From NCBI GenBank assembly GCA_963716175.1, contig OY970296.1, positions 1,760,001 to 1,824,000 on the forward strand: 64,000 nt of DNA, read 5' to 3'. The position numbers and the translations under genes were made by a program. This document shows, piece after piece, positions 2,987 through 49,146 of this stretch. Numbering within the stretch: the stretch's first letter is position 1; the number at the start of each line of letters is the position of its first letter. This stretch comes from an uncultured Armatimonadetes bacterium (GTDB lineage Bacteria; Armatimonadota; Hebobacteria; Hebobacterales; Hebobacteraceae). Below the pieces are notes generated by a model. That model had not been told where the DNA came from and did no database searches. It saw nothing but the letters and a program-made list of their open reading frames with translations.

Positions 2987-3268
2987 GGGCAGGAGGCAAG
3001 TGGCTAGGCTCTCTGGGCGCTGGCTAAGCCCGACCTTGCCGGGCCGCTGGCTGGGCCGGCGGAGCCGGCCGCCATCCCGGCCCTATCGGGCCTAGAAGCT
3101 GTTTCATAACCTTCCCAGGGAGGTTATGAAACAGCACTGCACAACGTCAGGCCGTGGCAGGCGCATTTCATGCGAGGGCGTGGTGCGGCCAGCTAGCAGG
3201 TAGGTTATGAAATACGCTCTGGCGACACCCCGGCCCGGCGTAAGCGGGCCTAGGGGCTCCTGCCCAAC
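2987..3268. repeat. ~280-bp composite palindromic element, copy 1 (REP + nested twin-hairpin modules + inner MITE-like segment)
   Basis: Near-identical to 5845-6123; ends GGGCAGGAG...CTCCTGCCC; inner hairpin GCTGTTTCATAACC...GGTTATGAAACAGC at 3098-3135. Confidence 0.9.
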
Positions 3269-3284
3269 TTGAAGAGGGGCGCGA

Positions 3285-5666
3285 TCAGCCGAGAGGCAGC
3301 AGGTCGAAGGCACGGGCGATATAGACCGCCATCTGGTCGCGACTGCAGAGGTACTCCGGATGGTACCAGCCATCCGGATATCCGCCGGTTACGCCCGCGT
3401 CCTCGATGTACTGTATGTACTTGCGCGCCCAGAACTCACAGGGCACATCCGGGAACGGGGGAGCCTCGCATCCGAGGTCGGGTACGCCGGCCTCCCCCGT
3501 CGGGGTGGCGATGGCGCGGGCGATGAAGGCCGCCATCTGGCCGCGGTCAAGCTCCAGGGAAGGGCGGTAGACGCCACCGGTATAGCCTTCCACGATGCCG
3601 ACATCGTGGGCGTACTCGATGTACCTGTAGGCCCAGTGCTCGACCGGCACATCCTTGAAGGAGGGCTGGGCCGGGCCGGTCGGGACCCCGGCGTCGCCGC
3701 CGGCCAGGGCGCGGGAGATGTAGACCGCCATCTGGTCCCGGGTGACCACCTCATCGGGCTGATAGGAGCCGTCGGGGTAGCCCTGGACGATGCCCGCGTC
3801 GGCGCAGCCTTCGATCTCATCGAATGCCCAGTGATCCAGCCCCACGTCATCGAACCTGAGTATCCTCAGCCTGACCACCTGGCCATCGCCCTGGTCGGCA
3901 ACCCAGAGGGTTCGCTGGACGGGGTTCAGCGCGATGGACCAGGGCATGAAGAAGTGTCCGCCACGCCAGCGCTCTGTGCCGTCGGCCGCCAGGTGGACGA
4001 TCTGCCACTGTCCGTCATCGCCGGCCCAACACGATCCGTCCCGCGGGTTCACCGCCAACGTCAGAGGCGCCCCGAGGAAACGGGAAGTCTCGAAGCGACC
4101 GCCGCGCCACAGCTCTGTGCCGTCCGCCGCCAGATGCACCACCTGATTGCGCCCATTGTCAGCCACCCAAACCGACCCATCCGTGGGGTTGGCGGCGAGG
4201 AAAGCCGCGACACCGAACTGGCCGCCCTCCCACAGCCTCGTCCCGTCCGCGGCGAGATGGAGCACCGTGGTGTAGAGCGCCACCCAACATGAGCCATCGG
4301 TGGTGTTCACGGCAACAGGATCCGGCATCAGCAGCGGTGAGCTCCGCCACAACTCCGTCCCATCAGAGCCAAGATGGAAGACGATACCAGCATCCAGGTT
4401 GGTGACCCAGCAGGAGCCATCGCTTGGGTTCACAGATACCGAACTGGGAGAGGCGAATCTGTCGGAGCGCCAGATCTCTTTGCCATCTCCACTGAGGTGC
4501 ACGACCTGGTGGTTCCCGTTGTCGGCCACCCAGCAAGAACTGTCCGCAGTGTTGACCGCCACAGAGTAGGGCTGCGCGAAGCCACGCGCCTGCCACATTA
4601 GCGCGCCGTCTGACGCCAGGCGGACGATCTGGCTATCGGTGAGATCGGCGACATAAGCGGAGCCGTCCCCGGGGTTGACGCTGACTGAGAATGGCATTGC
4701 CAGCCAGCCGCCCCGCCACAGCTCTGCAGCATCTTTGGAGACATGGACCACCTGGCCGTGTTGCCAGTCCCCAACCCAGCAGGAGCCGTCTGCAGGGTCG
4801 GTTGAGAGCGGTCCTGTCGCAATGCCCCCGCGCGACCACAGCTCCACTCCAGCGGGCGATAGGAGCATAAGCTGCCCCGCGCCCGAGTCGCTTACATAGC
4901 AGGTGCCGTCCACGGGGTTGACTGAGAGGGAATCAACGCTGGCAAATACCGTGCTGCTCCATAGCTCCTGGCCGTTCTTGTCCAGATGCACCAGCCGGCC
5001 CGGTTCAGCCTCGCCAACCCAGCACGAGCCGTCGCCCTCGTTCACAGCTATAGCTATGGGATGTGAGGGCTCTGCGCTCCGCCACAGCTCCGTTCCGTCC
5101 TCGGCCAGGTGCACCAGAATGTTGATCGAGGAGTCTGCCAGCCAGCAGGAGCCGTCGAGGCGGTTCGCGGCAAGCTCGTTCGGAGTGCTGAACCCACCGC
5201 CCCGCCAGAGCACAGTTCCGTCCTTGGCCAGCTGCGCGACCTCGCCCACCGCCGTTTCCCCCGACCAATCGTACCCGCTCACCCAGCAGGTGCCATCCGA
5301 GTTGTTGACCGCGACCGCCTGCGGGCCCTTGAACGGGCCCCCGCGCCACAGCTCAGTTCCGTCGGGGGCAAGATGAACGATCTCGAGGTGCCGAGTGTCC
5401 GCGACCCAGCATGTCCCGTCATTGGAATTCACGGAGACGGAACTCGGGCCCCAGAAGCTATCCGTCTGGCTGAGCACTGTGCCGTCCTTCGCCAGGTGCA
5501 TCACGCTGCCGCCGATAGCCAGCCACGCGGACTGATCCGAGGGGTTGACGGAGACAGAACTCGGCCGGCCGAATGGGCTCCGCCAGGTCTCGACGACATT
5601 CTCGGAACGCGCAGTCGTGACCAACGAGAGGAGAAGAAGCGCCAACATAACGGGCCTTGCACTCAT
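3285..5666 (-). CDS. Secreted beta-propeller (NHL-like repeat) protein with three C-terminal SLH domains
   Basis: Signal peptide; many ~40-aa repeats SVSVNPxDGSCWVAD...VVHLAxDGTELWRGG; SLH motifs FDDVGLDHWA...GIVQGYPDGSYQP...TRDQMA. Confidence 0.85.
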   Translation of the reverse strand: MSARPVMLALLLLSLVTTARSENVVETWRSPFGRPSSVSVNPSDQSAWLAIGGSVMHLAKDGTVLSQTDSFWGPSSVSVNSNDGTCWVADTRHLEIVHLAPDGTELWRGGPFKGPQAVAVNNSDGTCWVSGYDWSGETAVGEVAQLAKDGTVLWRGGGFSTPNELAANRLDGSCWLADSSINILVHLAEDGTELWRSAEPSHPIAIAVNEGDGSCWVGEAEPGRLVHLDKNGQELWSSTVFASVDSLSVNPVDGTCYVSDSGAGQLMLLSPAGVELWSRGGIATGPLSTDPADGSCWVGDWQHGQVVHVSKDAAELWRGGWLAMPFSVSVNPGDGSAYVADLTDSQIVRLASDGALMWQARGFAQPYSVAVNTADSSCWVADNGNHQVVHLSGDGKEIWRSDRFASPSSVSVNPSDGSCWVTNLDAGIVFHLGSDGTELWRSSPLLMPDPVAVNTTDGSCWVALYTTVLHLAADGTRLWEGGQFGVAAFLAANPTDGSVWVADNGRNQVVHLAADGTELWRGGRFETSRFLGAPLTLAVNPRDGSCWAGDDGQWQIVHLAADGTERWRGGHFFMPWSIALNPVQRTLWVADQGDGQVVRLRILRFDDVGLDHWAFDEIEGCADAGIVQGYPDGSYQPDEVVTRDQMAVYISRALAGGDAGVPTGPAQPSFKDVPVEHWAYRYIEYAHDVGIVEGYTGGVYRPSLELDRGQMAAFIARAIATPTGEAGVPDLGCEAPPFPDVPCEFWARKYIQYIEDAGVTGGYPDGWYHPEYLCSRDQMAVYIARAFDLLPLG

Positions 5667-5844
5667 TCTTGCCCCTTGTCAAGCAGTTCGGCCCGCGCGG
5701 AGCACAGAGCGGAATGTCAATGCGATTATACCATCTGCTCGCCGTGTCTGGTTGACAGTGGCGAACAGGGGCCCGGAGGCAAGTCACCAGAGGCGACTGA
5801 AGTTCACCCGCCTCGGCCGGGCCCCTGCCCAACGAGGCAACGAT

Positions 5845-6123
5845 GCAGGAGGCAAGTGGTCAGGCCCTCTGGGCGCTGGCTAAGCCCGACTTCGCCGGGC
5901 CGCTGGCTGGGCCGGCAGAGCCGGCCGCCATCCCGGCCCTATCGGGCCTAGAAGCTGTTTCATAACCTTCCCAGGGAGGTTATGAAACAGCACTGCACGA
6001 CGTCAGGCCGTGGCAGGCGCATTTCATGCGAGGGCGTGGTGCGCCAGCTAGCAGGTAGGTCATGAAATGCGCTCTAGCGACACCCCGGCCCGGCGTAAGC
6101 GGGCCTAGGGGCTCCTGCCCAAC
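5845..6123. repeat. ~280-bp composite palindromic element, copy 2
   Basis: Direct repeat of 2987-3268 with scattered substitutions; flanked by CCTGCCCAACGAGGCAA on both sides. Confidence 0.9.
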
Positions 6124-14618: not shown

Positions 14619-14694
14619 GGTGAACGTAGCTCAATGGTAGAGCGCCGGACTGTGGATCCGGTGGTTGGGGGTTCAAATCCCCTCGTTCACCCCA
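14619..14694 (+). tRNA. tRNA-His (GTG)
   Basis: G-1 plus GTGAACG...CGTTCAC-C-CCA, anticodon loop CTGTGGA. Confidence 0.95.
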
Positions 14695-15504
14695 TTCTCT
14701 TGGCCGGGATAGCCGGCCCGCTTGGGGCCCAGGTCGGGGGTAAAGGCTGGAGGCGGAGCCTGGGTGCGGTGGTTGGGGGTGGCTAAGCCCAACGGGCCGC
14801 CATGGCGGTCGCCGCTGCCCGGCGACCTAGCCATTCAAATCCCCTCGTTCACCCCATTCTCTTGGCCGGGATAGCCGGCCCGCTTGGGGCCCAGGTCGGG
14901 GGTAAAGGCTGGAGGCGGAGCCTGGGTGCGGTGGTTGGGGGTGGCTAAGCCCAACGGGCCGCCATGGCGGTCGCCGCTGCCCGGCGACCTAGCCATTCAA
15001 ATCCCCTCGTTCACCCCATTCTCCTGGCCGGGATAGCCGGCCCGCTTGGGGCCCAGGTCGGGGGTAAAGGCTGGAGGCGGAGCCTGGGTGCGGTGGTTGG
15101 GGGTGGCTAAGCCCAACGGGCCGCCATGGCGGTCGCCGCTGCCCGGCGACCTAGCCATTCAAATCCCCTCGTTCACCCCATTCTCCTGGCCGGGATAGCC
15201 GGCCCGCTTGGGGCCCAGGTCGGGGGTAAAGGCTGGAGGCGGAGCCTGGGTGCGGTGGTTGGGGGTGGCTAAGCCCAACGGGCCGCCATGGCGGTCGCCG
15301 CTGCCCGGCGACCTAGCCATTCAAATCCCCTCGTTCACCCCATTCTCTTGGCCGGGATAGCCGGCCCGCTTGGGGCCCAGGTCGGGGGTAAAGGCTGGAG
15401 GCGGAGCCTGGGTGCGGTGGTTGGGGGTGGCTAAGCCCGACGGGCCGCCATGGCGGTCGCCGCTGCCCGGCGACCTAGCCATTCAAATCCCCTCGTTCAC
15501 CCCA
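14695..15504 (+). repeat. Five tandem 162-bp tRNA-His-linked repeats
   Basis: Units end at 14856, 15018, 15180, 15342 and 15504, each with TTCAAATCCCCTCGTTCACCCCA; about two variable positions in total. Confidence 0.97.
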
Positions 15505-15519
15505 TTCCTTGTTGCTCCT

Positions 15520-17218: not shown

Positions 17219-17818
17219 ATGACCTGGGACTTGGCTTCTCACCAACGGCGATCGCTCCGGTTAGCAGGCTATGACTACCGACGACCAGGGGTTTACTACT
17301 TGACTATCTGCGCGGCCGATCGAGCGTGTACGTTCGGGCGTATGGATGGAGGCAAAGTGAGGGTAAGCTCGGTCGGGAAGATGGTGGCCGAGGAATGGGT
17401 GCGATCATGCGAAGTGCGGCCGGAAATGGCACTCGATGACTGGGTACTGATGCCCAACCACCTTCATGGAATCGTCACCATCACCGCGGGGGCGCATCGC
17501 CATGCGCCCCTACCTCTGGGCCTGCGGTGGCCGGAGGGTAAGCTGCCATTTGACTCCGCGCCCTTGCACAGGCCCTCCCGTTCTCTGGGCTCCTTCGTGG
17601 CAGGGTTCAAAGGCGCCGTCACCCGCCGTGTGATCGCGATGAAGGGCTCACAGATCACACCGGTATGGCAACGCGGGTACTACGAACATGTCGTTCGTGA
17701 TGAGGACGACCTCGAACGCGTCCGGGAGTACATCCGCGAGAACCCGCGCCGATGGGCAGAGGATACCGAGAATCCCGAAAGTAGGGGCGCATGGCAATGC
17801 GCCCGATCACTCAGATGA
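17219..17818 (+). mobile_element. REP-associated tyrosine transposase (RAYT, Y1/HUH family)
   Basis: RRSLRLAGYDY...YYLTIC, MPNHLHGIV (HUH), WQRGYYEHVVR...YIRENP; REPs at 17488-17513 and 17781-17804. Confidence 0.92.
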
Positions 17819-22285: not shown

Positions 22286-22314
22286 GATACCCCCCTCCAG
22301 CCGTGGTCGGCGGG

Positions 22315-22539
22315 CTACAGCGCCAGGAATTCGTCCACCGAGAGCCCGGCTTCTCTGACAACCGCTCTCACGGTGCCCTCTGGCAAGTCGCCGGGGTGGT
22401 TCGGGACGGTAATCCGGCGTCTGGTCACGGGGTGCCGCCAGATTTCATGACTCCCCTTTGCCTGGCGGTCGAAGACAAAGCCCGCGCGCCGCAGCCGCGA
22501 GATTACGTCGGTTGCCGAGAGGCCGGCCAGTCTCCCCAC
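22315..22539 (-). CDS. hicA: Type II TA toxin, HicA family
   Basis: LRRAGFVFDRQAKGSHEIW...ITVPNHPGDLPEGT. Confidence 0.9.
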   Translation of the reverse strand: MGRLAGLSATDVISRLRRAGFVFDRQAKGSHEIWRHPVTRRRITVPNHPGDLPEGTVRAVVREAGLSVDEFLAL

Positions 22540-22879: not shown

Positions 22880-23205
22880 GTGATCGTGCTAGACGGGGAG
22901 CTAGCGGTGCCCTGCACCCGCAATCCGCTATAGCGGGGTCGAACTCCCGTCCGAGGGCGTGTCGTTTGGGGTCTGTGGGGGCGTAAGCGGTGTTGACGGT
23001 CGGGCCCTGCGCAGCGGGCGCTTTGCGAACCCCGTCAGGTCCGGAAGGAAGCAGCGGTAAGCAACGGGGCCTGTGTGCCGCAGACCGTCCGACCCGAGTG
23101 GCTAGGCCTGCCTATGGCAGGCCGCCACCCCGGCCCGAAAGGGCTTAGGGGCCGGCTGCGCTCATTCCGCCTGGGCGATCCGTTCGACGGCGGGTGCACG
23201 ATCAC
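22880..23205 (+). ncRNA. ffs: Signal recognition particle RNA, large (Alu-containing) type, with a 53-nt insertion
   Basis: TCAGGTCCGGAAGGAAGCAGC core; Alu-like GGGGAGCTAGCGGTGCCCTG...CAATCCGCT; termini GTGATCGTGC/GCACGATCAC pair; TGCTATAAT extended -10 upstream. Confidence 0.93.
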
Positions 23206-23206
23206 T

Positions 23207-31040: not shown

Positions 31041-31106
31041 CCACCCGAGGTCCCGGACTAGCTTCGGGCTGTCGCTCTCCCTCGGCCGCCCAAGCAAGAG
31101 CACGCG

Positions 31107-31937: not shown

Positions 31938-31939
31938 AG

Positions 31940-32019
31940 GGGCAGGTCGCGTGGCTAGGCCCGCCTGCGGCGGGCCGTCACCCCGGCCGCTGTAAGCGGC
32001 CTAGGGGGACCTGCCCTAC
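31940..32019. repeat. REP carrying a 56-nt twin-hairpin module (31952-32007)
   Basis: Removing the module leaves GGGCAGGTCGCGGACCTGCCCTAC, the exact reverse complement of the REP at 47280-47303. Confidence 0.85.
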
Positions 32020-32047
32020 GGTTGACATTTCAGGGAGGTGATGTCGC

Positions 32048-33170: not shown

Positions 33171-33319
33171 CCAGGGAGCTCTGGGCACGGCGGCAAGTCT
33201 ATGTCGCACCACCTGTGGGGCCCAGAACTCCTCGGCCAAGCGCGCGAGAGGGCGCTAGCTAGTTTCGTGGTAGGAGTCGCTGGGTACACCGGTAGTGAGC
33301 GGCAGGGGGAGGGACTCGT

Positions 33320-34003
33320 ATGACTAGAGGCCTGTTGATGGCAGTCACCGCAACGCTGGGACCGGCGCTGATTTCCAGCGGTCTCTGGGCGGCGGGGTTG
33401 TGCAAAGTGACGGTGCCGCTGGACAGCCGGAATGCGCGGTTGGCTGAGTCCAACCTGGGGGACCTGGTGGCGGACGGCGCCCGCGCCGCGCTGAACGCCG
33501 ACCTGGCGCTGCTGCCGGCTAGCCAGCTCCGGGAGGAGGTGATCCCCGCGGGGGAGCTGGCCGAGCAGGCGCTGGAGGCGGCCTTACTCTATCCCGACGA
33601 GAATGTGGTGCTGGTCGAGACCACGGGGGAGAAGCTGAAGGCGGCGCTGGAACTCGGCCTGTCCGCACTCTCTCAGCCCAACCCCCAGCCCAGCCCCGCG
33701 TTCCTACAGGTGTCCGGTCTGACGGTCGAGTTCCGCTCGGCCAAGCCGGCCGGTGCGCGGGTGGAATCGGTGAAAGTGGGCAATGAGCCGCTGGCGCCTG
33801 GGAAAACCTACCGGGTGGCGGTCCCCAGCTCTCTGGCAAAGGGAGGAATGGGATACTTCCGGGTCTTCGACGGGCTCAAGCCCAAGCAGACCGGGCCCAG
33901 CCTCAGCCAAGCGGTGGTGAATTACGCGCGCGCCAGCCGAGTGGTGGCGATCACGGCCGGCCAGCGGCTGCGCGACCTGTCAACCCCTGCCCCGAAGGGC
34001 TAG
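33320..34003 (+). CDS. Secreted 5'-nucleotidase C-terminal domain protein
   Basis: ESNLGDLVADG, FLQVSGL, YRVAVPSSLAKGGMGY; no N-terminal metallophosphatase domain seen. Confidence 0.8.
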   Translation: MTRGLLMAVTATLGPALISSGLWAAGLCKVTVPLDSRNARLAESNLGDLVADGARAALNADLALLPASQLREEVIPAGELAEQALEAALLYPDENVVLVETTGEKLKAALELGLSALSQPNPQPSPAFLQVSGLTVEFRSAKPAGARVESVKVGNEPLAPGKTYRVAVPSSLAKGGMGYFRVFDGLKPKQTGPSLSQAVVNYARASRVVAITAGQRLRDLSTPAPKG

Positions 34004-34128
34004 CGCGGGACGATCTTCTCGTTGGATATCAGCTCGCTTCCGATCGCGGTGAGGCATGGCGGCCGCAGCCCCGATGGCGCTGCCGGGCTGGTTTGGGATA
34101 TAATGTCCGCGAGAACTGAGCCACCGCG

Positions 34129-36474: not shown

Positions 36475-36568
36475 CGGGCCTTGTCCCAGCAAGGTGACAG
36501 GGGAACCGGTGCCCCAGCCGAAGCGCGGCGCGAAAGGGCCCTGACGCCTGACCTAGAGGTTACCTGAG

Positions 36569-37690
36569 ATGACACGCGCGTTCCGGATTGGCCGGGTTTT
36601 CAACATTGACATCGAGATTGACTACACCTGGTTCATCGTGTTCGTGATCGTGGCCGCGCTGCTCGCCACCGGATGGTTCGCGAAGTATCTCCCGCATGTT
36701 ACAGTAGGCCTGCGCTGGATAGTGGGGTTCATCGCCGCCATCCTGTTCTTCGTGAGTGTGCTGCTGCACGAGCTCTCGCACTCAGTGGTGGCCATCCGCA
36801 GCGGCATGAAGATCAGCGGCATCACCCTGTTCCTCTTCGGCGGGGTCTCGAAGATGACCGATGAGCCCAAGTCGGCGGGGGTGGAATTCCGCATGGCCAT
36901 CGCCGGTCCGGCCATGAGCATCCTGCTGGCGCTGATCTTCCTGGGCCTGGCGCGGGTGACGCGGGCGGGGCCCGGCGGGGAAGTCCTGGGCACGGTGTTC
37001 GCCTGGTTGGGGTGGATGAACGGGATGCTGGCGGTGTTCAACCTGCTGCCCGGCTTCCCTCTGGACGGTGGGAGAGTGCTGCGGGCCGGGATCTGGGGGG
37101 TCACTCACGATCTCACCGATGCCACCCGGGTCGCCTCCGCCTTCGGGCAAGGGCTGGGTTTCCTGCTGATCGTGGCCGGGGTAATCCTGTTCATCGGGCG
37201 GGACTTCGGGGGCCTGTGGCTGGCCTTCATCGGCTGGTTCCTGGTGCAGGCCGCGCAGCAGAGCTACCGGCAGTTGGTGCTGCGGCAGGCGTTGTTGGGG
37301 GTGCCGGTCTCCTCGGTGATGACGGCCCAGGTGGAGTGGGTGCCGGCGGAGGCCACCCTGGAGCAGGTGGTGCACGACCATGTGATGGTCCACAATCATC
37401 CGGCCTTCCCGGTACTGGAGAGCAGCCGCTTGCTGGGTCTGCTATCGCTGAGCGATATCAGGCACGTGCCGCGGGAGCGCTGGCCTTTCGTGACGGCCCG
37501 CGAGGCGGTCCCGGCGCTGACTGAGCTTCAGACCGTTTCCCCCTCTGCCGACGCCTGGGAGGCGCTGCTGAAGATGACCTCCGGGCACGCGGGGCGGCTG
37601 CTGGTGACCGAGGACGGCGCGCTGCGCGGCATCATCACCCGCACGGACGTGATGCACCTGATCCGGAGGCGGATGGAGCTGGGGGTGTAG
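36569..37690 (+). CDS. Site-2 protease (M50) with CBS pair
   Basis: HELSHS, FNLLPGFPLDGGR, C-terminal CBS domains. Confidence 0.92.
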   Translation: MTRAFRIGRVFNIDIEIDYTWFIVFVIVAALLATGWFAKYLPHVTVGLRWIVGFIAAILFFVSVLLHELSHSVVAIRSGMKISGITLFLFGGVSKMTDEPKSAGVEFRMAIAGPAMSILLALIFLGLARVTRAGPGGEVLGTVFAWLGWMNGMLAVFNLLPGFPLDGGRVLRAGIWGVTHDLTDATRVASAFGQGLGFLLIVAGVILFIGRDFGGLWLAFIGWFLVQAAQQSYRQLVLRQALLGVPVSSVMTAQVEWVPAEATLEQVVHDHVMVHNHPAFPVLESSRLLGLLSLSDIRHVPRERWPFVTAREAVPALTELQTVSPSADAWEALLKMTSGHAGRLLVTEDGALRGIITRTDVMHLIRRRMELGV

Positions 37691-37708
37691 TCAGCCTGTG
37701 CGATTCGG

Positions 37709-38764
37709 CTAGGCCAGTGTCTCCCCGTACGGCGCCCGCGCTACCCCGCGCTCTGTCACGATCCCGGCGATCAGCTCGGCAGGAGTGATGTCGAAGGCGG
37801 GGTTGAACACCTCCGCCCCTGCCGGCGCGACCGGCGTTCCGCCGAAGCCAAGCACCTCTTCGGCGCTGCGCTCCTCTATCGGTATCTGAGAGCCGTCGGC
37901 GAGAGAGGGGTCAAGGGTGGAGGTGGGCGCTGCCACGTAGAATGGAATCTGGTGGTGACGCGCCAGCACGGCGAGGCCGTAGGTGCCGATCTTGTTGGCC
38001 GTGTCGCCGTTGCGGGCGATGCGGTCGGCGCCGACGATGACGACATCCACCATGCCCCGCGCCATGCAGGCCCCGGCCATGCCATCGGTGATAAGGGTGG
38101 TCGGGACGCCGGCGCGCATCAGCTCCCACATGGTGAGCCGCGCGCCTTGCAGCAGCGGCCGCGTCTCGCAGGCCAACACCTTGACCGGGTTGCCGGCGGT
38201 CCCTAGGTCGCAGTGCGACCGGGATGGCGGCCCCTTGGGCCTAGCCACGTGGGCGGCCTTGATCACCGCCAGCGCGGTGCCTTCGCCTCCCGTGGCGAGC
38301 GCGCCGGTGTTGCAGATGGTCAGCACGCCTGCGCCGTGCGGGATAAGCGCGCGGCCGTGCTCGGCGATGAGCCGGCAGGTCTCAGTATCCTCCCGGTGGA
38401 TGGCGAGCGCCTCCTGAGCCAGCTCGTCGGCGGTGACACCGGCCGCGGCCCGGGATAGCATGCGGTCTATCGCCCAGAACAGGTTGCGCGCGGTGGGTCG
38501 GGTGGCGCGCAGCAGGGCGGCCGCCTCGGCGATCCGCTCCTGCATGCCCTGGGCTTCGCCCCGGGCGGCGAGGGCGAGGCCGTAGGCGGCGGCGATGCCG
38601 ATGAGAGGCGCGCCCCGCACCTGGAGGGTGCGAATCGCCTGGGCCACCTGCCCGACCTGCCGGCAGCGCAGGTATACCTCCTCCTGGGGCAGGCGGGTCT
38701 GATCCAGGATTACGACCGCATCCTCATCCCAGCGGATTGGGTCAATCTTGCCTACGGGCATCAA
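37709..38764 (-). CDS. mtnA: S-methyl-5-thioribose-1-phosphate isomerase with 16-aa insertion
   Basis: VRGAPLIG, RPTA, CNTGALAT, ETRPLLQGARLT, GADRIARNGDTANKIGT, NPAFDIT. Confidence 0.95.
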   Translation of the reverse strand: MMPVGKIDPIRWDEDAVVILDQTRLPQEEVYLRCRQVGQVAQAIRTLQVRGAPLIGIAAAYGLALAARGEAQGMQERIAEAAALLRATRPTARNLFWAIDRMLSRAAAGVTADELAQEALAIHREDTETCRLIAEHGRALIPHGAGVLTICNTGALATGGEGTALAVIKAAHVARPKGPPSRSHCDLGTAGNPVKVLACETRPLLQGARLTMWELMRAGVPTTLITDGMAGACMARGMVDVVIVGADRIARNGDTANKIGTYGLAVLARHHQIPFYVAAPTSTLDPSLADGSQIPIEERSAEEVLGFGGTPVAPAGAEVFNPAFDITPAELIAGIVTERGVARAPYGETLA

Positions 38765-38810
38765 GGCATTCCTTTCCCAGTGCAGCCAGCAGCACTATAA
38801 TAGCAGAGAT

Positions 38811-38836
38811 GGCGGGGTCGGGAGACCCCGCCCTAC
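38811..38836. repeat. GTAG-type REP
   Basis: GGCGGGGTCGGGAGACCCCGCCCTAC. Confidence 0.7.
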
Positions 38837-38870
38837 ACAACGGCAAGTGTGGCCGGTGAGTCAGATGCGG

Positions 38871-40151
38871 ATGCAGAAATGCCCCCAGTGTGGGGCGGAG
38901 AACAGCATAAGACGCGCCACTTGCTACCAGTGCCAGCAGACGCTGGCTTCCCAGGCCGAACAGGTGGACCGCCCCGCGGCCTCACGCTGGGAGGCGATCG
39001 AGCCGCTGGGCCGGAGGCCCAGAAAGCGCGTGCTGCGGCCGGCCCCGGATGCGATCACATTGTCTGCGCCCCCGGCCGAGGTGCAGGAGCGGGCGCGCAG
39101 CTACATGCCCACCTTCCGCCGCCCGCTCCGCCACGTGCGCCGGATGGGGGTCTTCTTTCGGGAGCTGCACACCCTCACGCGCTCCGGCATCGCCATCGCC
39201 TCGGCCTGCCAGGAGCTTTCCCGCCGCGCCCCGGCTGGCCTGCGGGGGCTGGCGGGGGAGATGGCAGAAGCGGCGGGCGCGGGGAAACCCATTCATACGG
39301 TCATGGAGCAGCACCGGGATCTGCTCTACCCCTGGCATATTGGCCTGGTGCGCGCGGCCCAGGCGGGGGGCTACCTGCCGGAGGCTTTCGACCAGATCGC
39401 GCACGCCTATGAGGTGGAGTGGCAGACCCGTTCCGCCCTGCTCTCGCGGCTGCTCTTCTACCTGGTTTTCGGGCTGCCGCCGGTGCTGGTGGTGCTGCCC
39501 CTGATCCTGATGCTGAACCAGCCCATCCCGACGGAGGGGTGGACGCCGGAGCTTCTGCTCCAAGTTGCGCTGCACTACTTCCGCACGGTTTCACTGTCCA
39601 TCGTGATCGGTCTGATCGCATTGATCCTGGTGTGGCAGGCGCTATCAGCTACCGCTTGGTTCCAGGTCTGGCAGCAGCGCGCGGTGCTGCGCTTGCCGGT
39701 GGTGGGGCGGGTGGCCCGCGCGGCGGCGCTGGATCGCTATTTGGCTACGCTGGGGCTGCTGCTGCGAGGTGGGATCCCGGTGGCGGAGGCGGCGGAAGAG
39801 GCGGCGCGGGCGGCGGGCAACGCCGGCCTCACCCCCAGGCTGCTGGAGGTGGGAAGCGCGGTGCGCTCCGGCGTCTCCCTCGCCCAGGCCCTGGAGAGCA
39901 CCGGCGGGTTCGACCGCGACACGCTCAGCATGGCGGCCACTGGCGAGGTGTCGGGGAGCTTGCCAGAGATGCTGGGCCGGGCCGCCGGCTACTATCGGGA
40001 AGAGCAAGAGCTGAAGCGGAGACTGCTGCTGCGGATGGCGAACGTGGCCTTCGGCGTGGTGTGGATCTGCGTGGCCGGGGCGATCTTCCTGATCGGGGTG
40101 CGCGTCTACTTCGACTTCGCTTTCCGGGTGATGGATTGGATGATGGAGTGA
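38871..40151 (+). CDS. Type II secretion system F / PilC-family protein with N-terminal zinc ribbon
   Basis: FFRELHTLTRSGI; LGLLLRGGIPV...GEVSGSLPEML; N-terminal CPQC-X10-CYQC. Confidence 0.85.
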   Translation: MQKCPQCGAENSIRRATCYQCQQTLASQAEQVDRPAASRWEAIEPLGRRPRKRVLRPAPDAITLSAPPAEVQERARSYMPTFRRPLRHVRRMGVFFRELHTLTRSGIAIASACQELSRRAPAGLRGLAGEMAEAAGAGKPIHTVMEQHRDLLYPWHIGLVRAAQAGGYLPEAFDQIAHAYEVEWQTRSALLSRLLFYLVFGLPPVLVVLPLILMLNQPIPTEGWTPELLLQVALHYFRTVSLSIVIGLIALILVWQALSATAWFQVWQQRAVLRLPVVGRVARAAALDRYLATLGLLLRGGIPVAEAAEEAARAAGNAGLTPRLLEVGSAVRSGVSLAQALESTGGFDRDTLSMAATGEVSGSLPEMLGRAAGYYREEQELKRRLLLRMANVAFGVVWICVAGAIFLIGVRVYFDFAFRVMDWMME

Positions 40152-40163
40152 GGAGGAGCCGAG

Positions 40164-40553
40164 ATGAAGCTCGAGGTGGATGGAATGTGCTTCGCCTGCG
40201 GCCAGCAGAACCCCATCGGACTGAAGCTGAGCTTCCACTTCGAGGGCGATGATTATGTAACCAGCCTCCAGATACGACCAGAGTACCAGGGCTGGGCTGG
40301 GATCGTGCACGGCGGCCTGCTGGCCACGGCGCTGGATGAGACTATGGCGCGGCTGCTGTGGGAGCGGGAGATCAATGCCATCACCGGCCGACTGGAGGTA
40401 CGCTATCGCCGGCCTGTCGCCATCGGGGAGCAGCTCCAGCTTCGCGGCCGCATCACCCGGCGACGTCCACCCGTGGTGGAGACCGAGGCCTGGGCCATCG
40501 CCGCCGACGGCGCGGTGGTGGCGGAAGCGAAGGCGACGAGCATAGGGGTGTAG
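40164..40553 (+). CDS. PaaI-family thioesterase
   Basis: CFACGQQNPIGL, YQGWAGIVHGGLLATALDE. Confidence 0.9.
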   Translation: MKLEVDGMCFACGQQNPIGLKLSFHFEGDDYVTSLQIRPEYQGWAGIVHGGLLATALDETMARLLWEREINAITGRLEVRYRRPVAIGEQLQLRGRITRRRPPVVETEAWAIAADGAVVAEAKATSIGV

Positions 40554-40619
40554 CGGGGAGGAGACAGGGCGGCAACCCTCTTGCTGGAACCTGGGAATAC
40601 CATGGCGGAGGCGAAACCA

Positions 40620-41171
40620 ATGCGGGCAACAGAGGATTTGAAGCAGGAGCACCGCGTGATCGAGCTGGTGCTGACGGCCCTGGAGGGGATGGCGCAGCAG
40701 CTCGAGCGGGGGAATCTCTTGCGCCGAGAGCCAGCCGAGAGGGCACTGGAGGTGGTGCGCAACTTCGCCGACAAGTGTCACCACGGCAAGGAAGAGCGGT
40801 ATCTGTTCACGAGGCTGGAGACGCGGGGGATGTCGCGCCAGACCGGGATCATCTCGGAGTTGCTGCACGAGCACGGGGAAGGCCGGGCGCACGTGCGCGC
40901 TTTCGCGCGGGCCCTGGTGGGCGCCTGCGAGAGCAATCCGCAGGATGGCCGCGCCTTCGCCGAGCACGCCCAGGGCTATGTCACGCTCCTCAGGAAGCAC
41001 ATCCAGAAAGAGGACGACGTTTTCTTCCCAATGGCCGACCAGAAGCTAACCCCGGAGGATGACGCGGAGCTGATGGAGGCCTTCGAGAAGATCGAGCGGG
41101 AGGAGATCGGCGAAGGGGCGCACGAGAACTACCATCGCTGGGCGGTGGAACTCGCACAGCAGAAGGAGTAG
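40620..41171 (+). CDS. Hemerythrin (HHE) domain protein
   Basis: LKQEH, CHHGKEE, LHEHGEGR, HIQKEDDVFFPMA; start approximate. Confidence 0.9.
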   Translation: MRATEDLKQEHRVIELVLTALEGMAQQLERGNLLRREPAERALEVVRNFADKCHHGKEERYLFTRLETRGMSRQTGIISELLHEHGEGRAHVRAFARALVGACESNPQDGRAFAEHAQGYVTLLRKHIQKEDDVFFPMADQKLTPEDDAELMEAFEKIEREEIGEGAHENYHRWAVELAQQKE

Positions 41172-41226
41172 GCGCGCAGTTCAGTGCGCCCGGAACAGCC
41201 TGGGGCGTGATGAATCACGCCCCTAC
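41168..41226. repeat. Inverted REP doublet (REPIN-like)
   Basis: GTAGGCGCGCAGTTCAGTGCGCCC...GGGGCGTGATGAATCACGCCCCTAC. Confidence 0.7.
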
Positions 41227-41283
41227 AACAGCTGGCCGGATAGCCCGGATTCCCCGGTCACACCCCAGCGCAGGAGCGCGCCG

Positions 41284-43229
41284 CTAGCCGCGCACCGCCT
41301 TCTCCGCGCGGGCCAGCGCGTGCTGCGCAGGCTCGGCTGCCAGCGGGTCAACCCAGGGCGAGAAGTCCTCGAGCATCCTGCGCCGGACGGCCTCGTAGTC
41401 CGCGCGAAGGGCGCGGAGGGCCTTGCGGTCTTTGCGCCATCCCGCAAGGTGGGCACGGGCGATGCGGTTGGCCTGGTCGGCGTGGATGGCAACCAACTCC
41501 AAGCTGGTGCGCACCACTGGGTTCCTCTCCCGCTTGGCGAGGGCGCCGAAGCGCAGCCGGTAGCGCTCGGTCGAAGCGGCCATCTGCTGCATCTTCTTCA
41601 GGTCGGCGGCATCGCCGTCCCCCAGGGTCTTATGCTCGTAGTCCGGCCCGCTGCGGAAGCCTGCTACCAGGTGCGAGAAGTAGGCCTCCACTTCGTCGGC
41701 CTGCTGGCCAAAAGCGGCCGACATGATCTTGGCGCGGTGCTGCCTGGCAGGCAGGCGCTTGTTCCAGAGCAGATCACCCATCGCGTTCGGCATGTAGGGG
41801 AGCGGGTAGAAGCAACGTATCGCCTGGCAGCTCAAGAGGCCGTTCAGGCCAAGTGACTCCAGATCCTTTAGGTCCCGCGCCATCGCGGCCCCCACATCCC
41901 GCCCCAGGCCATCGGACCAGACTGCCCACATCATGTGATAGTCGAAGATGAAGGTATCGGGCAGCTTCAGCTTGCTCCAGCTGCGCATGATCTGGGCATA
42001 GGCGCGATTGGTGCGCGGGAGGCGGCAGCGGTTCAGCTTGGGCCGGGCGGCGCCGGCGGGTTCCTGGCATTTGGGATCATCCAGGGGGTGGCGGTAGCAA
42101 CGGGTGATGGGCGCGTACATGAAGATGACGTTGTCGGTGGTGACGCGAACTCGGTCGGGCGGCCAAAGCAGATCCATGTAGCCCAGGAAGACCACGCGCG
42201 TGGCAAGCTGCTCCTGCTTCAGCCGGCGGCCGATCGCCTCCACCAGCATGGCATACCAGTCGGAGGGGGTCTGCTTGCGGCAGTCCGCGCACTCGCACTT
42301 GTTGTTGTAGGAGTCCGACATCCAGACGTGCAGGCAGTCCACCTCCGAGTGCTGTCTGGCATAGGTCACCACTTGCTCGACGAAGGCCTGCCGCACCTGC
42401 GGCTGGGAGTAGCAGAGCTCGGTGTTGGCGGCGATGCCCTCCCACAGATCCCGTTTGCCGTTCACCTCCGCCAGCCAGCCTCGCTTGTCGCGGGCTGGCC
42501 TTTGCGCGGTCCTCTCCCAGCCCAGGCCGGGCACACCGACGGCGGCAGAGGTCCAGCCATGCCCAACCCGATGGAGCACCATGCCCAAGTCCTTGACGCG
42601 CGCGATCACCCGGTCATCCAAAGCGTAGCAGTCGGACTCGGAGAGGCGGTCTCCCACCTCCTGATAGCCCCGCCGCCAGAAGACGCCGGCGTGGAGGAAC
42701 TGGAGCTGGAAGGTGTTCATCTTCTTCTTCGCCATCCAGTCGAGCACATCGAGCACATGCGCCAGCCGCGGCGCGCCCTCGATGCAGATGCCCCGGTGGC
42801 GATAGCTGGCCTGCTCGCGAAGGGGGCGTGTCGGGAGACTGAGCCGGCGGCCCGCGGGCACCACCTCGCCGTTGGGGCCAGGCCGGAGGAAGACAACGCC
42901 CAGCTCCTCGAGCAGGCGGTAGGCAGCGAAGAGGACGCTGCGGGGATTGGACCCCACCAGATAGAGGGTCCCTTTCCTGGGGATGATGGCGAGCGCGTCA
43001 TCGAGCTGGTGGGGCCGGGGAGCGCGCCCAGGCCCAGGCCGGTGAGGTGGTCGCCGGTGCCCAGCACGATGCGGGCCCGGCAGCCCTCGGGCAGCAATGC
43101 GAGCGGGGGCAAGGCCTCGGCTACGACGTTCGCCAGTCGGGGCAGATAGGCCTCAAGCTCCTGCGCGGCCCGCGCCACCGGTGACTCGAAGCCCAGCGGT
43201 TGGATCAGGATGCGACTGTTGGCTCTCAT
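41284..43229 (-). CDS. DUF4838-like putative glycoside hydrolase, frameshifted near 43010-43020
   Basis: N-terminal part (AAQELEAYL...IVLG) is one frame off from DDALAIIPRKGTLYLVGSNPRSVLFAAY...LDWMAKKKMN; one C missing in a C-run. Confidence 0.7.
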
Positions 43230-47579: not shown

Positions 47580-47605
47580 CGAGAGCGCCCGCCGTGCCGA
47601 CTGCC

Positions 47606-47687
47606 GGGCAGGAGGCAAGTGGCTAAGCCCGCCTGGGGCGGGCCGCCACTCCGGTCGCCGGAGGCAACCTAGGGGCTCCTGCCCAAC
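47606..47687. repeat. REP carrying a 56-nt twin-hairpin module (47620-47675)
   Basis: GGGCAGGAGGCAAG[module]CTCCTGCCCAAC, the same flanks as 2987-3268. Confidence 0.85.
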
Positions 47688-47716
47688 CCGTTTCACTGGC
47701 TTCCTGGAGGATCGCT

Positions 47717-49012
47717 TTGTCGAGCTGGCTGATCGAGAACGCGGCAGTAGTGACGGTTGACGATCACGATACCGTGCTGCCGCGGGCGGACTTGCTGGTC
47801 GAGGGTACGGACATCGCCGGGCTGTGGCCGGCAGGCAAACCGGCCGGAGTGAAGGCAGCGCAGACCATCGAGGCCAAAGGCATGGTAGTGATGCCCGGCA
47901 TGGTCAACGCCCACACCCACTGCGCCATGACCTTCCTGCGCGGCTATGCCGATGACATGCCGCTGATGCCGTGGCTGAAGGAGCGCATCTGGCCCTTCGA
48001 GATGAAGCTGCAGCCGGAGGATGTGTATTGGGGCAGCATGCTGGGCATCGCGGAGATGATCCGGGGAGGCGTGACCTGCTTCAATGACATGTATCACTAC
48101 TTCGAGCAGGCGGCGCGGGCGGCGCTGGACAGCGGGATTCGCGCCCATGTCTCAGGGGTGCTGCTCGCCTTCCTGCCGGATGCCAAGGAGCGGCTGGAGC
48201 ACGCCATCGAGTTCGCCAAGGAGTGGCATGGGCGAGGAGACGGCCGGCTGGTGACGATGCTGGGGCCTCACGCTCCCTACACCTGCCCGAATCACCTGCT
48301 GGAACGAGTGATCGAGGGGGCGCGGGAAAGCGGAGTTGGCATCCACATCCACGTCTCAGAGACCAGGCAAGAGGTGCAGGACAGCCTGAAGGAGTTCGGG
48401 CAGACGCCGGTGGCACGGCTGCGGGAGATCGGACTGCTGGACGTGCATCCGGTGCTGGCCGCGCACTGCGTGCATCTCACGGATTCGGATATCGCCACCC
48501 TGGTTGATAAGAAAGTAGGCGCTTGCCACTGCCCGGGAAGCAACATGAAGCTGGCCTCCGGGGTGGCGCCGGTGCCCAGGCTGCTGGAGGCGGGGGCGAT
48601 CGTGGGCCTGGGCACAGATGGGCCGGCGAGTAACAACAACCTGGATATGCTGGAGGAGGCGCGGCTGGCGGCGCTGCTGCACAAGGTGGCCGGGGAGGAG
48701 CCGACGCTGGTGACCGCGCCCCAGGCGCTGCGGATGGCGACGCGCGGCAGCGCGCAGGCGCTTGGGATTGGCGATCGGGTGGGGCAGATCAAGGTGGGAA
48801 TGAAAGCCGATCTCGCTCTGCTGGACTTCCACCAGGCCCACCTCTACCCGCCCCATGATATCATCTCTCATCTGGTGTATGCCGCGCGCGCCGGCGACGT
48901 CCGTACGGTGTTCGTTAACGGCCGGCCGTTAATGATTGACCAGAAGCTGACCACCATGGATGAGGATGAGATCTTCCAGCAGGTAGGGGAGAGGCTGGAG
49001 CGGTTGGGCTGA
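47717..49012 (+). CDS. mtaD: Amidohydrolase, probable MTA/SAH deaminase
   Basis: NAHTH, GPHAPYT, HIHVSET, AHCVH, SNMKLASG, GTDGPASNNNLDM; mtnA in the same window. Confidence 0.85.
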   Translation: MSSWLIENAAVVTVDDHDTVLPRADLLVEGTDIAGLWPAGKPAGVKAAQTIEAKGMVVMPGMVNAHTHCAMTFLRGYADDMPLMPWLKERIWPFEMKLQPEDVYWGSMLGIAEMIRGGVTCFNDMYHYFEQAARAALDSGIRAHVSGVLLAFLPDAKERLEHAIEFAKEWHGRGDGRLVTMLGPHAPYTCPNHLLERVIEGARESGVGIHIHVSETRQEVQDSLKEFGQTPVARLREIGLLDVHPVLAAHCVHLTDSDIATLVDKKVGACHCPGSNMKLASGVAPVPRLLEAGAIVGLGTDGPASNNNLDMLEEARLAALLHKVAGEEPTLVTAPQALRMATRGSAQALGIGDRVGQIKVGMKADLALLDFHQAHLYPPHDIISHLVYAARAGDVRTVFVNGRPLMIDQKLTTMDEDEIFQQVGERLERLG

Positions 49013-49019
49013 GACGCGC

Positions 49020-49146
49020 GGCGGGCATAGGTCCCTAGGCCTGAAGGGCGGGATGTCCCTAGGCCCGGTAGGGCCGGGATGGCGGCCGGCTCTGCCAGCC
49101 TAGCCAGCGGTCGCCGAATGGCGGCCTAGCCACATGCCCGCCCTAC
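49020..49146. repeat. REP carrying two nested twin-hairpin modules
   Basis: Minus strand: outer module 49032-49132 contains inner module 49056-49106. Confidence 0.8.

What the first reader, a model, noticed from the sequence alone, without database searches (positions are those of the whole stretch)
2987..49146. A structure-defined 48-56 nt twin-hairpin module that inserts into RNA genes, a CDS, REPs and itself
Seen: more than a dozen copies share one design. Arm 1 is TGGC-[TA bulge]-stem-loop-stem-GCCA. It is followed directly by arm 2, NNNN-stem-loop-stem-[TA bulge]-N'N'N'N'. Loops and upper stems differ between copies, but the arm-2 base covaries: CCCC/GGGG (23099-23151, 31952-32007), TGGC/GCCA (14780-14833 and four repeats), TCCC/GGGA (38200-38247, 49056-49106), CTCC/GGGG (47620-47675). 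Deleting the module restores the host sequence in SRP RNA, mtnA, the tRNA T-arm and REPs, with no obvious target duplication. Established: HUH/Y1 transposases (IS200/IS605 TnpA, RAYT) recognise single-stranded DNA hairpins and make no target duplication. Inference: this may be an undescribed ultra-small non-autonomous element; the RAYT at 17219 is one candidate mobiliser.
Basis: partly seen in the sequence, partly recalled or inferred. Interest (0 to 1): 0.92.

Follow-up and report, generated by a model that had tools for sequence, protein, structure and literature searches.

The report
Tiny twin-hairpin mobile repeat family
A real, lineage-restricted family of 42-60-base repeats, each made of two back-to-back hairpins with a bulged TA, has been inserted cleanly into RNA genes, protein genes and other repeats; it behaves like a new variant of the known REP/REPIN small mobile elements of bacteria, and the enzyme that moves it is not identified.

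Summary
In the 4.56-Mb genome, hairpins built as 4-bp foot, bulged TA, variable upper stem number 207 with feet TGGC/TCCC/CCCC, against 3-8 in simulated genomes. They nearly always sit as zero-gap twins with the bulges outward. Upper stems and feet covary.

Empty sites show that the twin enters as one unit without target duplication:
- SRP RNA, 53 nt
- mtnA and proS, 16 codons each
- the T-arm of a tRNA-His fragment
- a T-box leader
- loops of GTAG-type REPs
- the foot of other twins

The family is confined to two families of one class, probably in Armatimonadota.

In kind it is not new. REP head-to-head dimers, REPINs, covarying stems and intragenic REPs in dnaE and repair genes are described (PMC3733652, PMC3116915). 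What differs is the CTAG tag closed by a foot, two separate hairpins with no spacer, the small size, and insertion into RNA genes.

The RAYT at 17219 is not supported as mobiliser. It has no repeats beside it, and its homologues carry their own GTAG REPs.

Verdict: a new variant of a known kind, with the mobiliser unknown.

The parts
22884..23201 (+). SRP RNA gene (large bacterial type), host of a twin module
   Evidence: Rfam RF01854 scores 140.8 bits, with its 3' part forced onto the module. The true 3' end follows from the alignment with relatives, giving 318 nt.
23099..23151 (+). Twin module, 53 nt (TGGC arm + CCCC arm), inside SRP RNA helix 5
   Evidence: Absent from 8 of 8 relatives in A1. 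Present at the same site in G007 and G012. The minimum-energy fold is two TA-bulged hairpins, z -4.26.
14780..14833 (+). Twin module (TGGC + TGGC), 54 nt, between T-stem and T-loop of a tRNA-His 3' fragment; first of five tandem copies (also 14942-14995, 15104-15157, 15266-15319, 15428-15481)
   Evidence: Sequence, unit list, fold.
14672..15511 (+). Tandem array, 5.2 x 162 bp; each unit holds a tRNA-His 3' fragment split by the module
   Evidence: Tandem Repeats Finder: 99% matches.
14620..14694 (+). Intact tRNA-His, which serves as the empty-site reference for the T-arm insertion
   Evidence: ARAGORN and Rfam.
31940..32019 (+). GTAG-type REP (class 2, GGGCAGGTC...GACCTGCCCTAC) carrying a twin module at 31952-32007 at its loop/stem junction
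   Evidence: three-way fold, z -5.40.
38200..38247 (-). Twin module, 48 nt (TGGC + TCCC arms on the minus strand), in frame inside mtnA; encodes VARPKGPPSRSHCDLG
   Evidence: A 16-residue insertion absent from 6 of 6 homologues and from G005, G003 and G021 at the DNA level.
37709..38764 (-). mtnA-like gene (IF-2B family), host of the module
   Evidence: Pfam PF01008, E 1.2e-82.
47606..47684 (+). REP class 2 hairpin carrying a twin module at 47620-47675 (arm-2 foot CTCC/GGGG, i.e. CCCC with one wobble)
49026..49134 (-). REP class 1 (GTAGGGCGGGCATG...) with a twin inside a twin; the inner twin at 49056-49106 interrupts the GCCA foot of the outer arm between GC and CA
   Evidence: (row '- 2751784 109').
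2987..3262 (+). Nest: REP class 2 stem, several arms inserted into one another, and an unrelated ~130-nt inverted-repeat element at a CTAG of an arm. A second copy lies at 5838-6118.
17219..17818 (+).
   Evidence: Pfam Y1_Tnp 22.8 bits (cut-off 23) and NCBIfam REP_Tyr_transpos 64.3 bits (cut-off 80). No repeats in its flanks.

Best explanation
The twin-hairpin module is a lineage-specific, non-autonomous small mobile element of the REP/BIME/REPIN kind: a head-to-head doublet of two tagged hairpins.

Anatomy. Each arm is a 4-bp foot (TGGC, TCCC, CCCC or CGGC, always ending in C), an unpaired TA (so the tag reads C-TA-G), and a G+C-rich upper stem of 4-9 bp that usually starts GGCC or GGTC, with a 3-5-nt loop. 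The two arms abut without a spacer, with the bulges at the outer ends, so the termini are inverted repeats (YSSCTAGGYC). At least one arm has a TGGC or CGGC foot.

Shown:
- The doublet is the unit that is gained.
- Its ends are exact.
- No target duplication is made.
- There is no conserved target sequence. The only bias is a G just outside each end (82 of 130).
- It is tolerated inside structured RNAs and, where its length is a multiple of three and it lies in the one stop-free frame, inside proteins.

Inferred:
- It moves as folded single-stranded DNA, cut and rejoined at the two feet by a trans-acting HUH/Y1 enzyme of the RAYT type. These are the only Y1 genes in the genome.
- Many copies spread by hitch-hiking in the loops of GTAG-type REPs, which the RAYTs flank.
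- The perfect but variable stems are kept by structural constraint, perhaps helped by templated correction of quasi-palindromes.
For: - The family is real and structured.
- Unit insertions have clean empty sites: SRP RNA, mtnA, proS, tRNA T-arm, T-box stem I.
- Fixed junctions occur in REP class 1 and class 2 loops, beside many empty REPs.
- Twins sit inside twins at GC^CA.
- Copying is recent: 13 of 68 twins have an identical copy at least 1 kb away and 26 have 2 or fewer differences.
- Abundance among relatives is patchy in the way expected of a selfish element: 93, 80, 33, 27, 26, 17, 13 and 12 arms in eight genomes, and 0-6 in the other 393 of 401 sampled in the phylum.
- The SRP insertion is shared by three genera, carries a compensatory T-A to C-G change, and is absent from a congener of one of them (G012 filled, G008 empty). 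That needs precise loss or repeated gain at one site.
- Six to seven RAYT-like Y1 genes and no TnpB are in the genome.
- In the family f1, the three genomes without any Y1_Tnp match that were at least 80% complete have 0, 0 and 2 arms.
- The REP literature describes head-to-head dimers 1-5 bp apart, covarying stems, and intragenic REPs in dnaE, uvrA and tRNA synthetase genes (PMC3733652: outline, section 5, passages). Here dnaE (twice), mutL, proS and a PFL-like gene carry modules.
Against: - No RAYT is physically linked to the modules. None of the 6 RAYT loci in this genome is. Of 9 loci read in relatives, only 1 has a module within 400 nt, and that module sits in a REP class 2.
- The abundance of GTAG REPs and of twin modules is decoupled across relatives. 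G001 has 60 REPs and 2 arms, G013 has 113 and 1, G016 has 11 and 93.
- The tag is CTAG with a closing foot, not the unpaired GTAG that RAYTs are known to use.
- The arms are mirror images on one strand, unlike the two ends of IS200/IS605 elements.
- G009 has 17 arms and no Y1_Tnp match, but it is only 74% complete.
- There is no significant bias relative to the direction of replication: 31 against 17, p 0.06.
- No excision or insertion was seen directly. The laid metagenome contigs were not decisive.
Confidence: 0.5

Rival explanations
1. The module is mobile, but a RAYT does not move it. Either an unidentified structure-specific enzyme cuts at the two feet, which would lie side by side if the arms stack coaxially, or host replication and repair insert and delete the stable double hairpin.
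For: - No RAYT is flanked by modules.
- Module abundance is decoupled from that of the GTAG REPs which the RAYTs flank.
- The tag is not GTAG.
- There is no conserved target sequence.
- Arms combine freely into twins: 167 distinct arm sequences at 229 places.
Against: - No candidate gene recurs next to modules. Clustering of 1810 ORFs within 2.5 kb of modules gave only ordinary paralogue families, which were not characterised further.
- The strictly conserved foot, TA and GG point to a sequence-reading protein, and Y1 enzymes are the known readers of bulged DNA hairpins.
- Genomes without Y1 genes have few or no arms.
Confidence: 0.25
2. The twin is mainly a functional structural motif, for example a protein-binding or RNA-stabilising or terminating double hairpin that selection keeps. 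It spreads only as a passenger of REPs and by recombination, not by its own transposition.
For: - 40 of 68 exact twins lie in REP loops at fixed junctions.
- The SRP RNA copy has been kept in three genera with a compensatory change.
- Stems are nearly perfect.
Against: - 16 distinct naked insertions lie in unrelated sequence with no REP flank, among them mtnA, SRP RNA and a T-box leader; proS and a PFL-like gene also carry twins without a REP flank.
- Insertions into coding sequence and essential RNAs are hard to see as selected functions.
- Copy number among close relatives ranges from 0 to 93.
Confidence: 0.12
3. It is a miniature of an ordinary inverted-repeat (DDE-type) transposon whose 10-bp termini are YSSCTAGGYC.
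For: The two ends are inverted repeats in double-stranded DNA. Another small inverted-repeat element in the same genome uses CTAG sites.
Against: - No target duplication at any of the sites with a known empty state.
- I saw no longer element with the same termini: nearly every arm has its partner directly beside it. I ran no dedicated search for distant arm pairs.
- The internal feet pair with the termini, which a double-strand-binding transposase would not need.
Confidence: 0.05

Closest known systems
GTAG-tagged REPs and their head-to-head dimers / BIMEs (Di Nocera, De Gregorio and Rocco 2013, PMC3733652: outline, section 5 and passages read)
   Same: - 20-40-nt palindromic units with a short unpaired tag containing TAG at one end
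- sub-families with complementary stem changes
- dimers in inverted orientation, with 1-5 bp between partners in some families
- clustering and nesting with other repeats
- units and dimers inside ORFs that encode 20-30 residues, notably in dnaE, uvrA, recB and tRNA synthetase genes
- a presumed single-strand mechanism through RAYTs
   Different: - The tag is C-TA-G, and only TA is unpaired, because a 4-bp foot closes the hairpin beyond it.
- The foot comes in four covarying types.
- There is always zero spacer.
- The units are not found flanking any RAYT gene.
- Insertion into SRP RNA, a T-box leader and a tRNA fragment: the term 'RNA genes' does not occur in that paper's main text.
REPINs, REP doublets forming hairpins (Bertels and Rainey 2011, PMC3116915: passages read; PMC3337134, PMC5581495 and bioRxiv 10.1101/2021.07.10.451892: search listing and abstract starts only)
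   Same: - The doublet, not the single unit, is the replicative entity.
- The units are in inverted orientation.
- Compensatory changes keep the hairpin.
- The element is non-autonomous and mostly vertically inherited.
- It is lineage-restricted.
   Different: - A REPIN is two REPs plus a spacer that fold into one long hairpin (71 bp between the conserved 16-mers in SBW25). Here two separate hairpins stand side by side with no spacer, 42-60 nt in all.
- No cognate RAYT has been identified.
- REPINs are described as extragenic.
Rickettsia palindromic elements (RPEs), as summarised in passages of PMC3733652; the original papers were not read
   Same: Small palindromic repeats inserted in frame into functional protein genes.
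   Different: Unrelated organisms and, as far as recalled, unrelated sequence. RPE-1 is longer (recalled). The insertion of an RPE into an RNA gene is recalled, not seen in any call. RPEs have no defined twin design with a bulged TA.
Double-hairpin elements and G+C-rich hairpin clusters of fungal and algal mitochondrial DNA. Only the search listing was seen (e.g. PMC4478555, PMC5910586); the defining Allomyces paper is recalled and was not read.
   Same: Very small elements defined by two hairpins, mobile within a genome, and found in intergenic regions, rRNA and coding regions (recalled).
   Different: They belong to organelle genomes. No sequence relation was tested, and their mechanism is equally unknown.
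IS200/IS605 ends and their miniature derivatives (HUH/Y1 TnpA)
   Same: Imperfect, bulged subterminal DNA hairpins read on single strands; no target duplication; precise excision. These are established features of the family, given from recall.
   Different: Those elements insert 3' of a fixed 4-5-nt target that pairs with a guide next to the hairpin, and both hairpins face the same way on one strand. Here there is no fixed target, the arms are mirrored, and the genome has no TnpB.

Membership tests
GTAG/CGTC-tagged REPs (PMC3733652) | Short (20-40 bp) palindromic unit in high copy number | tested here: met
   Arms are 21-31 nt. 207 arms carry the three main feet, in about 120 loci.
GTAG/CGTC-tagged REPs (PMC3733652) | Unpaired terminal motif fitting GTAG (or CGTC) | tested here: not met
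   The base before TA is C in 141 of the 143 arms with a fully paired foot. That C is paired; only TA is unpaired.
GTAG/CGTC-tagged REPs (PMC3733652) | Units associate as inverted (HH or TT) dimers | tested here: met
   43 strict and 68 relaxed zero-gap twins, all with the tags outside.
REP-RAYT system (REPtron) | The repeats flank a RAYT gene | tested here: not met
   None of 6 RAYT loci in G000. The window RAYT has no repeats within 400 nt. Of 9 loci in relatives, 1 has a REP class 2 carrying a module nearby.
REPIN (PMC3116915) | Two inverted REPs and a spacer fold into one long hairpin | tested here: not met
   The minimum-energy folds are two separate hairpins with no spacer.
REPIN (PMC3116915) | The doublet is the replicative unit | tested here: met
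   Empty sites in SRP RNA, mtnA, proS and the tRNA T-arm correspond to the whole twin.
IS200/IS605-derived miniature elements | Insertion 3' of a conserved tetra- or pentanucleotide, with no target duplication | tested here: not met
   No duplication (met). However, the flanks of 65 distinct twins share no conserved target, only G at -1 in 82 of 130.
IS200/IS605-derived miniature elements | An autonomous relative with tnpA/tnpB in the genome | tested here: not met
   No match to PF07282. The Y1 genes present are RAYT-like and 177-205 aa long.
Classical MITE (DDE transposase) | Terminal inverted repeats plus target-site duplication | tested here: not met
   Inverted termini are present. No duplication at any site with a known empty state.
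Any Rfam RNA family | Match to a curated covariance model | tested here: not met
   There is no match to the module itself. The only overlaps are SRP RNA and a weak chance match, PyrR204 at E 0.59.
Mitochondrial double-hairpin elements | Sequence or structural homology to the Allomyces-type consensus | not tested
   The consensus was not available from any call; the resemblance is recalled only.

The most novel reading that the evidence does not exclude
The twin is a self-contained minimal transposable element of a new mechanistic type. Its two bulged feet, if stacked coaxially, would bring both element ends together at a pseudo-dyad, where an enzyme other than the REP-flanked RAYTs cuts and reseals single-stranded DNA. 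That would give precise insertion and precise excision at almost any site, including inside essential RNAs. The SRP RNA site, filled in three genera and empty in a congener, would then record repeated precise excision.
Probability: 0.2. Interest if true: 0.85.

Novelty: new variant of a known kind. Interest (0 to 1): 0.6.

Why it matters
How REPs and REPINs move is still argued. Transposition has been inferred from a few sequencing reads (PMC3116915, passages), and in 2013 it was left open whether such repeats still form de novo (PMC3733652, abstract).

This family gives unusually clean material for that question:
- The element is about 50 nt, and its exact ends are fixed by empty sites in highly conserved genes (SRP RNA, mtnA, proS).
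- It makes no target duplication.
- Its recognition features are simple and conserved (foot, bulged TA, GG) next to freely varying stems.
- Related genomes range from 0 to 93 arms.

That makes binding and cleavage assays with the genome's few Y1 enzymes, and comparative searches for the mobiliser, directly feasible.

It also shows that an SRP RNA, a T-box leader and several essential enzymes apparently tolerate a 16-26-codon or 53-nt structured insert. This matters for annotation: Rfam scored the SRP RNA 60 bits lower than in relatives and mis-set its 3' end, and the T-box leader fell below the family threshold.

Tried and rejected
1. Window RAYT as mobiliser. It has no repeats in its flanks. 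Homologues with E below 1e-40 occur only in G016 and G006 among 40 relatives, and there they carry their own GTAG REPs. I rejected it as a supported link. It is not excluded, because the two genomes richest in arms (G000, G016) both have it.

2. Recurrent neighbouring gene. I clustered 1810 ORFs lying within 2.5 kb of modules. Only ordinary paralogue families of 8 or fewer members appeared. They were not characterised, and no transposase-like recurrent neighbour was evident.

3. Hairpin loops as the general target. For 20 naked twins the joined 16+16-nt flanks fold at a mean of -9.4 kcal/mol, against -7.7 (sd 3.6) at 3000 random places. Only 3 fall below the 5% tail. Rejected as a rule, although the REP and T-arm sites are stem/loop junctions.

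4. Replication-strand bias: 31 against 17, p 0.06. Not significant.

5. An SRP RNA tree to decide between one gain and several. The tree is poorly resolved: the three filled genomes need 3 changes on it, but well-supported branches allow 1. Undecided.

6. Long open frames across modules. Uninformative in a 66% G+C genome. Of 10 such frames sent to Pfam, 5 had clear domains (PFL-like, DnaE twice, ProRS, MutL), 1 had a weak match and 4 had none.

7. Public runs. No RNA holder is listed. Contigs of four metagenome runs laid on 22000-41999 were fragmented and mixed. One X2 contig of 2211 nt spans the SRP module without gaps. Other contigs are SRP alleles of other organisms without the module ('replaced, not cut out'). 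No joint skipping the mtnA module was among the rows shown, and 122 joints were not shown. No conclusion was drawn.

8. Viral contigs. The twin pattern occurs in 3 stretches of the collection. Not followed up.

9. Covariance model. Not built. The MAFFT alignment A5 misaligns arm 2 by one column in many rows, so I counted pairs on arm 1 only and used motif-anchored counts in scripts instead.

10. In one search the rows for G010 and G008 were given on the wrong strand and are uninformative. Only G005, G003 and G021 were used.

11. Literature searches retrieved no description of TA-bulged twin hairpins in bacteria. This is six word searches of an open-access library, not proof of absence.

Full report
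What is there. The copies named in the finding are at the stated places. Each folds, as its minimum-energy structure, into two adjacent hairpins. Each hairpin has a 4-bp foot, then an unpaired TA, then an upper stem of 4-9 bp that usually starts GGCC or GGTC, and a 3-5-nt loop. In the first arm the TA is on the 5' side; in the second it is on the 3' side. The arms abut without a gap. The reverse complement therefore has the same design, and the two termini are inverted repeats (YSSCTAGGYC...GRCCTAGSSR).

More than chance. In the whole 4.56-Mb genome:
- A strict scan found 345 TA-bulged hairpins of any foot, of which 158 have the feet TGGC, TCCC or CCCC.
- A relaxed scan found 207 with these feet, against 3, 8 and 4 in three order-3 Markov genomes and 30 in the reversed genome. 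All other feet together are at background level.
- 43 strict and 68 relaxed twins have zero gap and always the order 5'-bulge arm, then 3'-bulge arm.
- Almost all apparent singles have a degenerate partner beside them.
- In the architecture table, every multi-arm cluster contains at least one arm with a TGGC or CGGC foot.

Structure, not sequence, is conserved.
- I selected arms only by foot + TAG...C + foot. Of 178 such arms, 147 have three or more further stacked pairs, against 287 of 3560 shuffles. Pairs 3, 5 and 6 switch between C-G, T-A and G-C, and 92 distinct inner sequences occur among the 147.
- I selected candidates only by the upper stem. Of 839, 143 have a fully complementary foot, against 17.6 with shuffled partners and 1-5 with slid partners. 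The feet are TGGC 78, TCCC 35, CCCC 22, CGGC 6 and other 2.
- On an alignment of 42 strictly selected twins (so selected as hairpins), arm 1 shows 98.5% paired cells. 29 cells are changed on both sides, against 7.7 in shuffles, and 0 of 500 shuffles reach that.

It has been inserted as a unit.
- SRP RNA. Rfam's model breaks at the module and mis-sets the 3' end. Aligned with eight relatives, the gene carries a clean 53-nt insertion between CCCGAG and CYGG, with one G ambiguous.
- mtnA. A 48-nt, 16-codon insertion is absent from 6 of 6 homologues, the closest 72% identical, and from G005, G003 and G021 at the DNA level.
- proS. A 16-residue insertion is absent from 3 of 3 relatives.
- tRNA-His. 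Downstream of the intact gene lies a 5.2 x 162-bp tandem array. Each unit holds the 3' part of the tRNA with the module exactly between the T-stem and the T-loop.
- T-box leader elsewhere in the genome. It carries a 53-nt twin in the stem I region. It scores E 8.7e-10 but only 49.8 bits, against a gathering score of 93.
- Other genes. Modules lie inside a PFL-like glycyl-radical enzyme gene, dnaE (twice) and mutL. In dnaE they come with their REP host.
- Reading frame. The coding inserts I measured (mtnA 48, proS 48, the PFL-like gene 48, dnaE 57 twice, mutL 78 nt) are all multiples of three. They must lie in the single frame per strand that avoids the two TAGs. This points to translation, not splicing.

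Relation to REPs. The genome has classical GTAG-tagged REPs:
- Class 1 is GTAG-GGCGGGCAT(G)...(C)ATGCCCGCC (135 pattern matches, most with 8- or 12-nt centres).
- Class 2 is GTAG-GGCAGGTC-CGC-GACCTGCC (77 matches, 34 with one identical centre).

Four RAYT-like genes are flanked by class 1 REPs and one by GGCAGGAGC-type REPs. RAYTs in relatives are likewise flanked by GTAG heads.

Of 68 exact twins, 40 sit inside such REPs at fixed stem/loop junctions (CATG^CCCATG, CATG^TCTCCG, GGTCGCG^GACC). Eight are nested in other arms. Twenty, at 16 distinct loci, are naked in unrelated sequence. In the nests, a twin interrupts the GCCA foot of another arm between GC and CA.

The flanks share no target. 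The only bias is G at the base just outside each end, 82 of 130. The joined flanks of naked sites are not unusually hairpin-prone.

Age and activity.
- 13 of 68 twins have an identical copy at least 1 kb away, and 26 have 2 or fewer differences. At the same time there are 167 distinct arm sequences at 229 places, and arms combine in many pairings.
- The arm pattern occurs 80 times in this genome and 93, 33, 27, 26, 17, 13 and 12 times in seven relatives of two families of the same class. It occurs 0-6 times in the other 393 of 401 genomes sampled in the phylum. The control pattern gives 0-2.
- G016, from the other family, has the same twin design.
- The closest named mtnA locus comes from a 'Candidatus Hebobacteria' assembly, a class of Armatimonadota.

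The SRP insertion is polymorphic across genera. It is at the same site in G000, G007 and G012, which belong to three genera. Arm 2 is nearly identical in all three, and arm 1 of G007 differs from G000 by a compensatory T-A to C-G change. Fifteen other relatives are empty, including G008, which belongs to the same genus as G012. This needs either one old insertion with several precise losses, or repeated gain of the same variant at one site. The SRP tree is too weak to decide.

Who moves it?
- The RAYT at 17219-17818 has the HUH and tyrosine motifs, as read from its sequence. It scores just under the curated cut-offs.
- It has no repeated DNA in its flanks.
- Strong homologues occur only in G016 and G006 among 40 relatives, and there they have their own GTAG REPs beside them.
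- GTAG REPs occur in all 14 other genomes of the family f1. Their numbers do not track those of the twin modules: 60 against 2 in G001, 113 against 1 in G013, 11 against 93 in G016.
- Within f1, the genomes with no Y1_Tnp match have 0, 0, 2 and 17 arms; the one with 17 is 74% complete.
- There is no TnpB. No recurrent neighbouring gene was evident, and there is no significant replication-strand bias.

The mobiliser is therefore unidentified. A RAYT acting in trans is the most economical guess, because Y1 enzymes are the known readers of bulged DNA hairpins and make no target duplication (established knowledge of IS200/IS605 and RAYTs, from recall, and passages of PMC3733652 and PMC3116915).

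Comparison with what is known.
- Di Nocera et al. (PMC3733652: outline, section 5 and passages read) describe tagged REPs, complementary stem variants, and head-to-head and tail-to-tail dimers with 1-5 bp between partners in some families. They also describe REPs inserted in other palindromes, and REPs and dimers inside ORFs such as dnaE, uvrA, recB and tRNA synthetase genes.
- Bertels and Rainey (PMC3116915, passages read) define the REP doublet as the mobile unit and note compensatory changes.
- The present family works like these but fails two defining tests: the unpaired GTAG tag and the flanking RAYT. Unlike a REPIN, it does not fold into one long hairpin.
- Its special features are the closed foot with a bulged TA, four covarying foot types, zero spacer, a size of 42-60 nt, and clean insertions into structured RNAs.
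- Six word searches found no description of such an element.

Verdict. It is a new variant of the REP/REPIN kind. It offers a good experimental handle on how such elements move.

Noticed in passing
window 3097-3225 and 5951-6085: An unrelated element of about 130 nt and lower G+C, with inverted ends (AGCNNNTTTCATRACC...GGTYATGAAANNNGCT), sits at a CTAG of a module arm. In the second copy CTAG stands on both sides, as a target duplication would. Similar ends adjoin arms at G000 4078124 and 3547252.
   Followed up: partly
window 2987-3262 and 5838-6118, around ORF 3285-5666 (-): Two nearly identical composites of about 275 nt flank, as direct repeats, a gene for a 793-aa protein with SLH domains and NHL repeats.
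   Followed up: no
G000:C1 about 3077700-3077760 (locus L136): dnaE reads in two overlapping frames. One extra G after the codons for TYNA shifts the frame. This is either an assembly indel or a real frameshift. The same gene holds an empty REP class 2 and two identical REP-plus-module inserts, and is about 65 residues longer than in G009 in one linker.
   Followed up: partly
L222 306-368 (G000:C1 3644538-3644600), minus strand: The T-box leader that carries a twin also has a 63-nt extra segment holding a different palindrome with GTAG and CTAC at its ends (GTAGCGAAGTA...TACTTCGCTAC).
   Followed up: no
L017 (G013), alignment A3 columns 112-141: The SRP RNA of G013 has a 30-nt insertion at another position (after GGTGCCC) that starts TAAGCCCGCC and ends GGCGGG. 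It may be a single related hairpin.
   Followed up: no
G000 genome-wide: REP class 1 stems enclose other recurring inserts besides the twin: a 36-nt one (8 copies), a 42-nt one (5) and 32-nt ones. The REP loop acts as a general landing or cargo site.
   Followed up: no
G001:C1:2469767-2469796: One of only two arm matches in G001 lies 59 nt downstream of its SRP RNA gene, which is empty.
   Followed up: no
L224 552-634 and L230 137-290: tRNA genes lie about 100 nt from module loci at G000 3737899 and 655821.
   Followed up: no
whole genome G000: CTAG occurs 3688 times. By my own arithmetic from the base composition that is about a quarter of expectation. The modules, with two CTAGs each, hold a visible share of them.
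   Followed up: no
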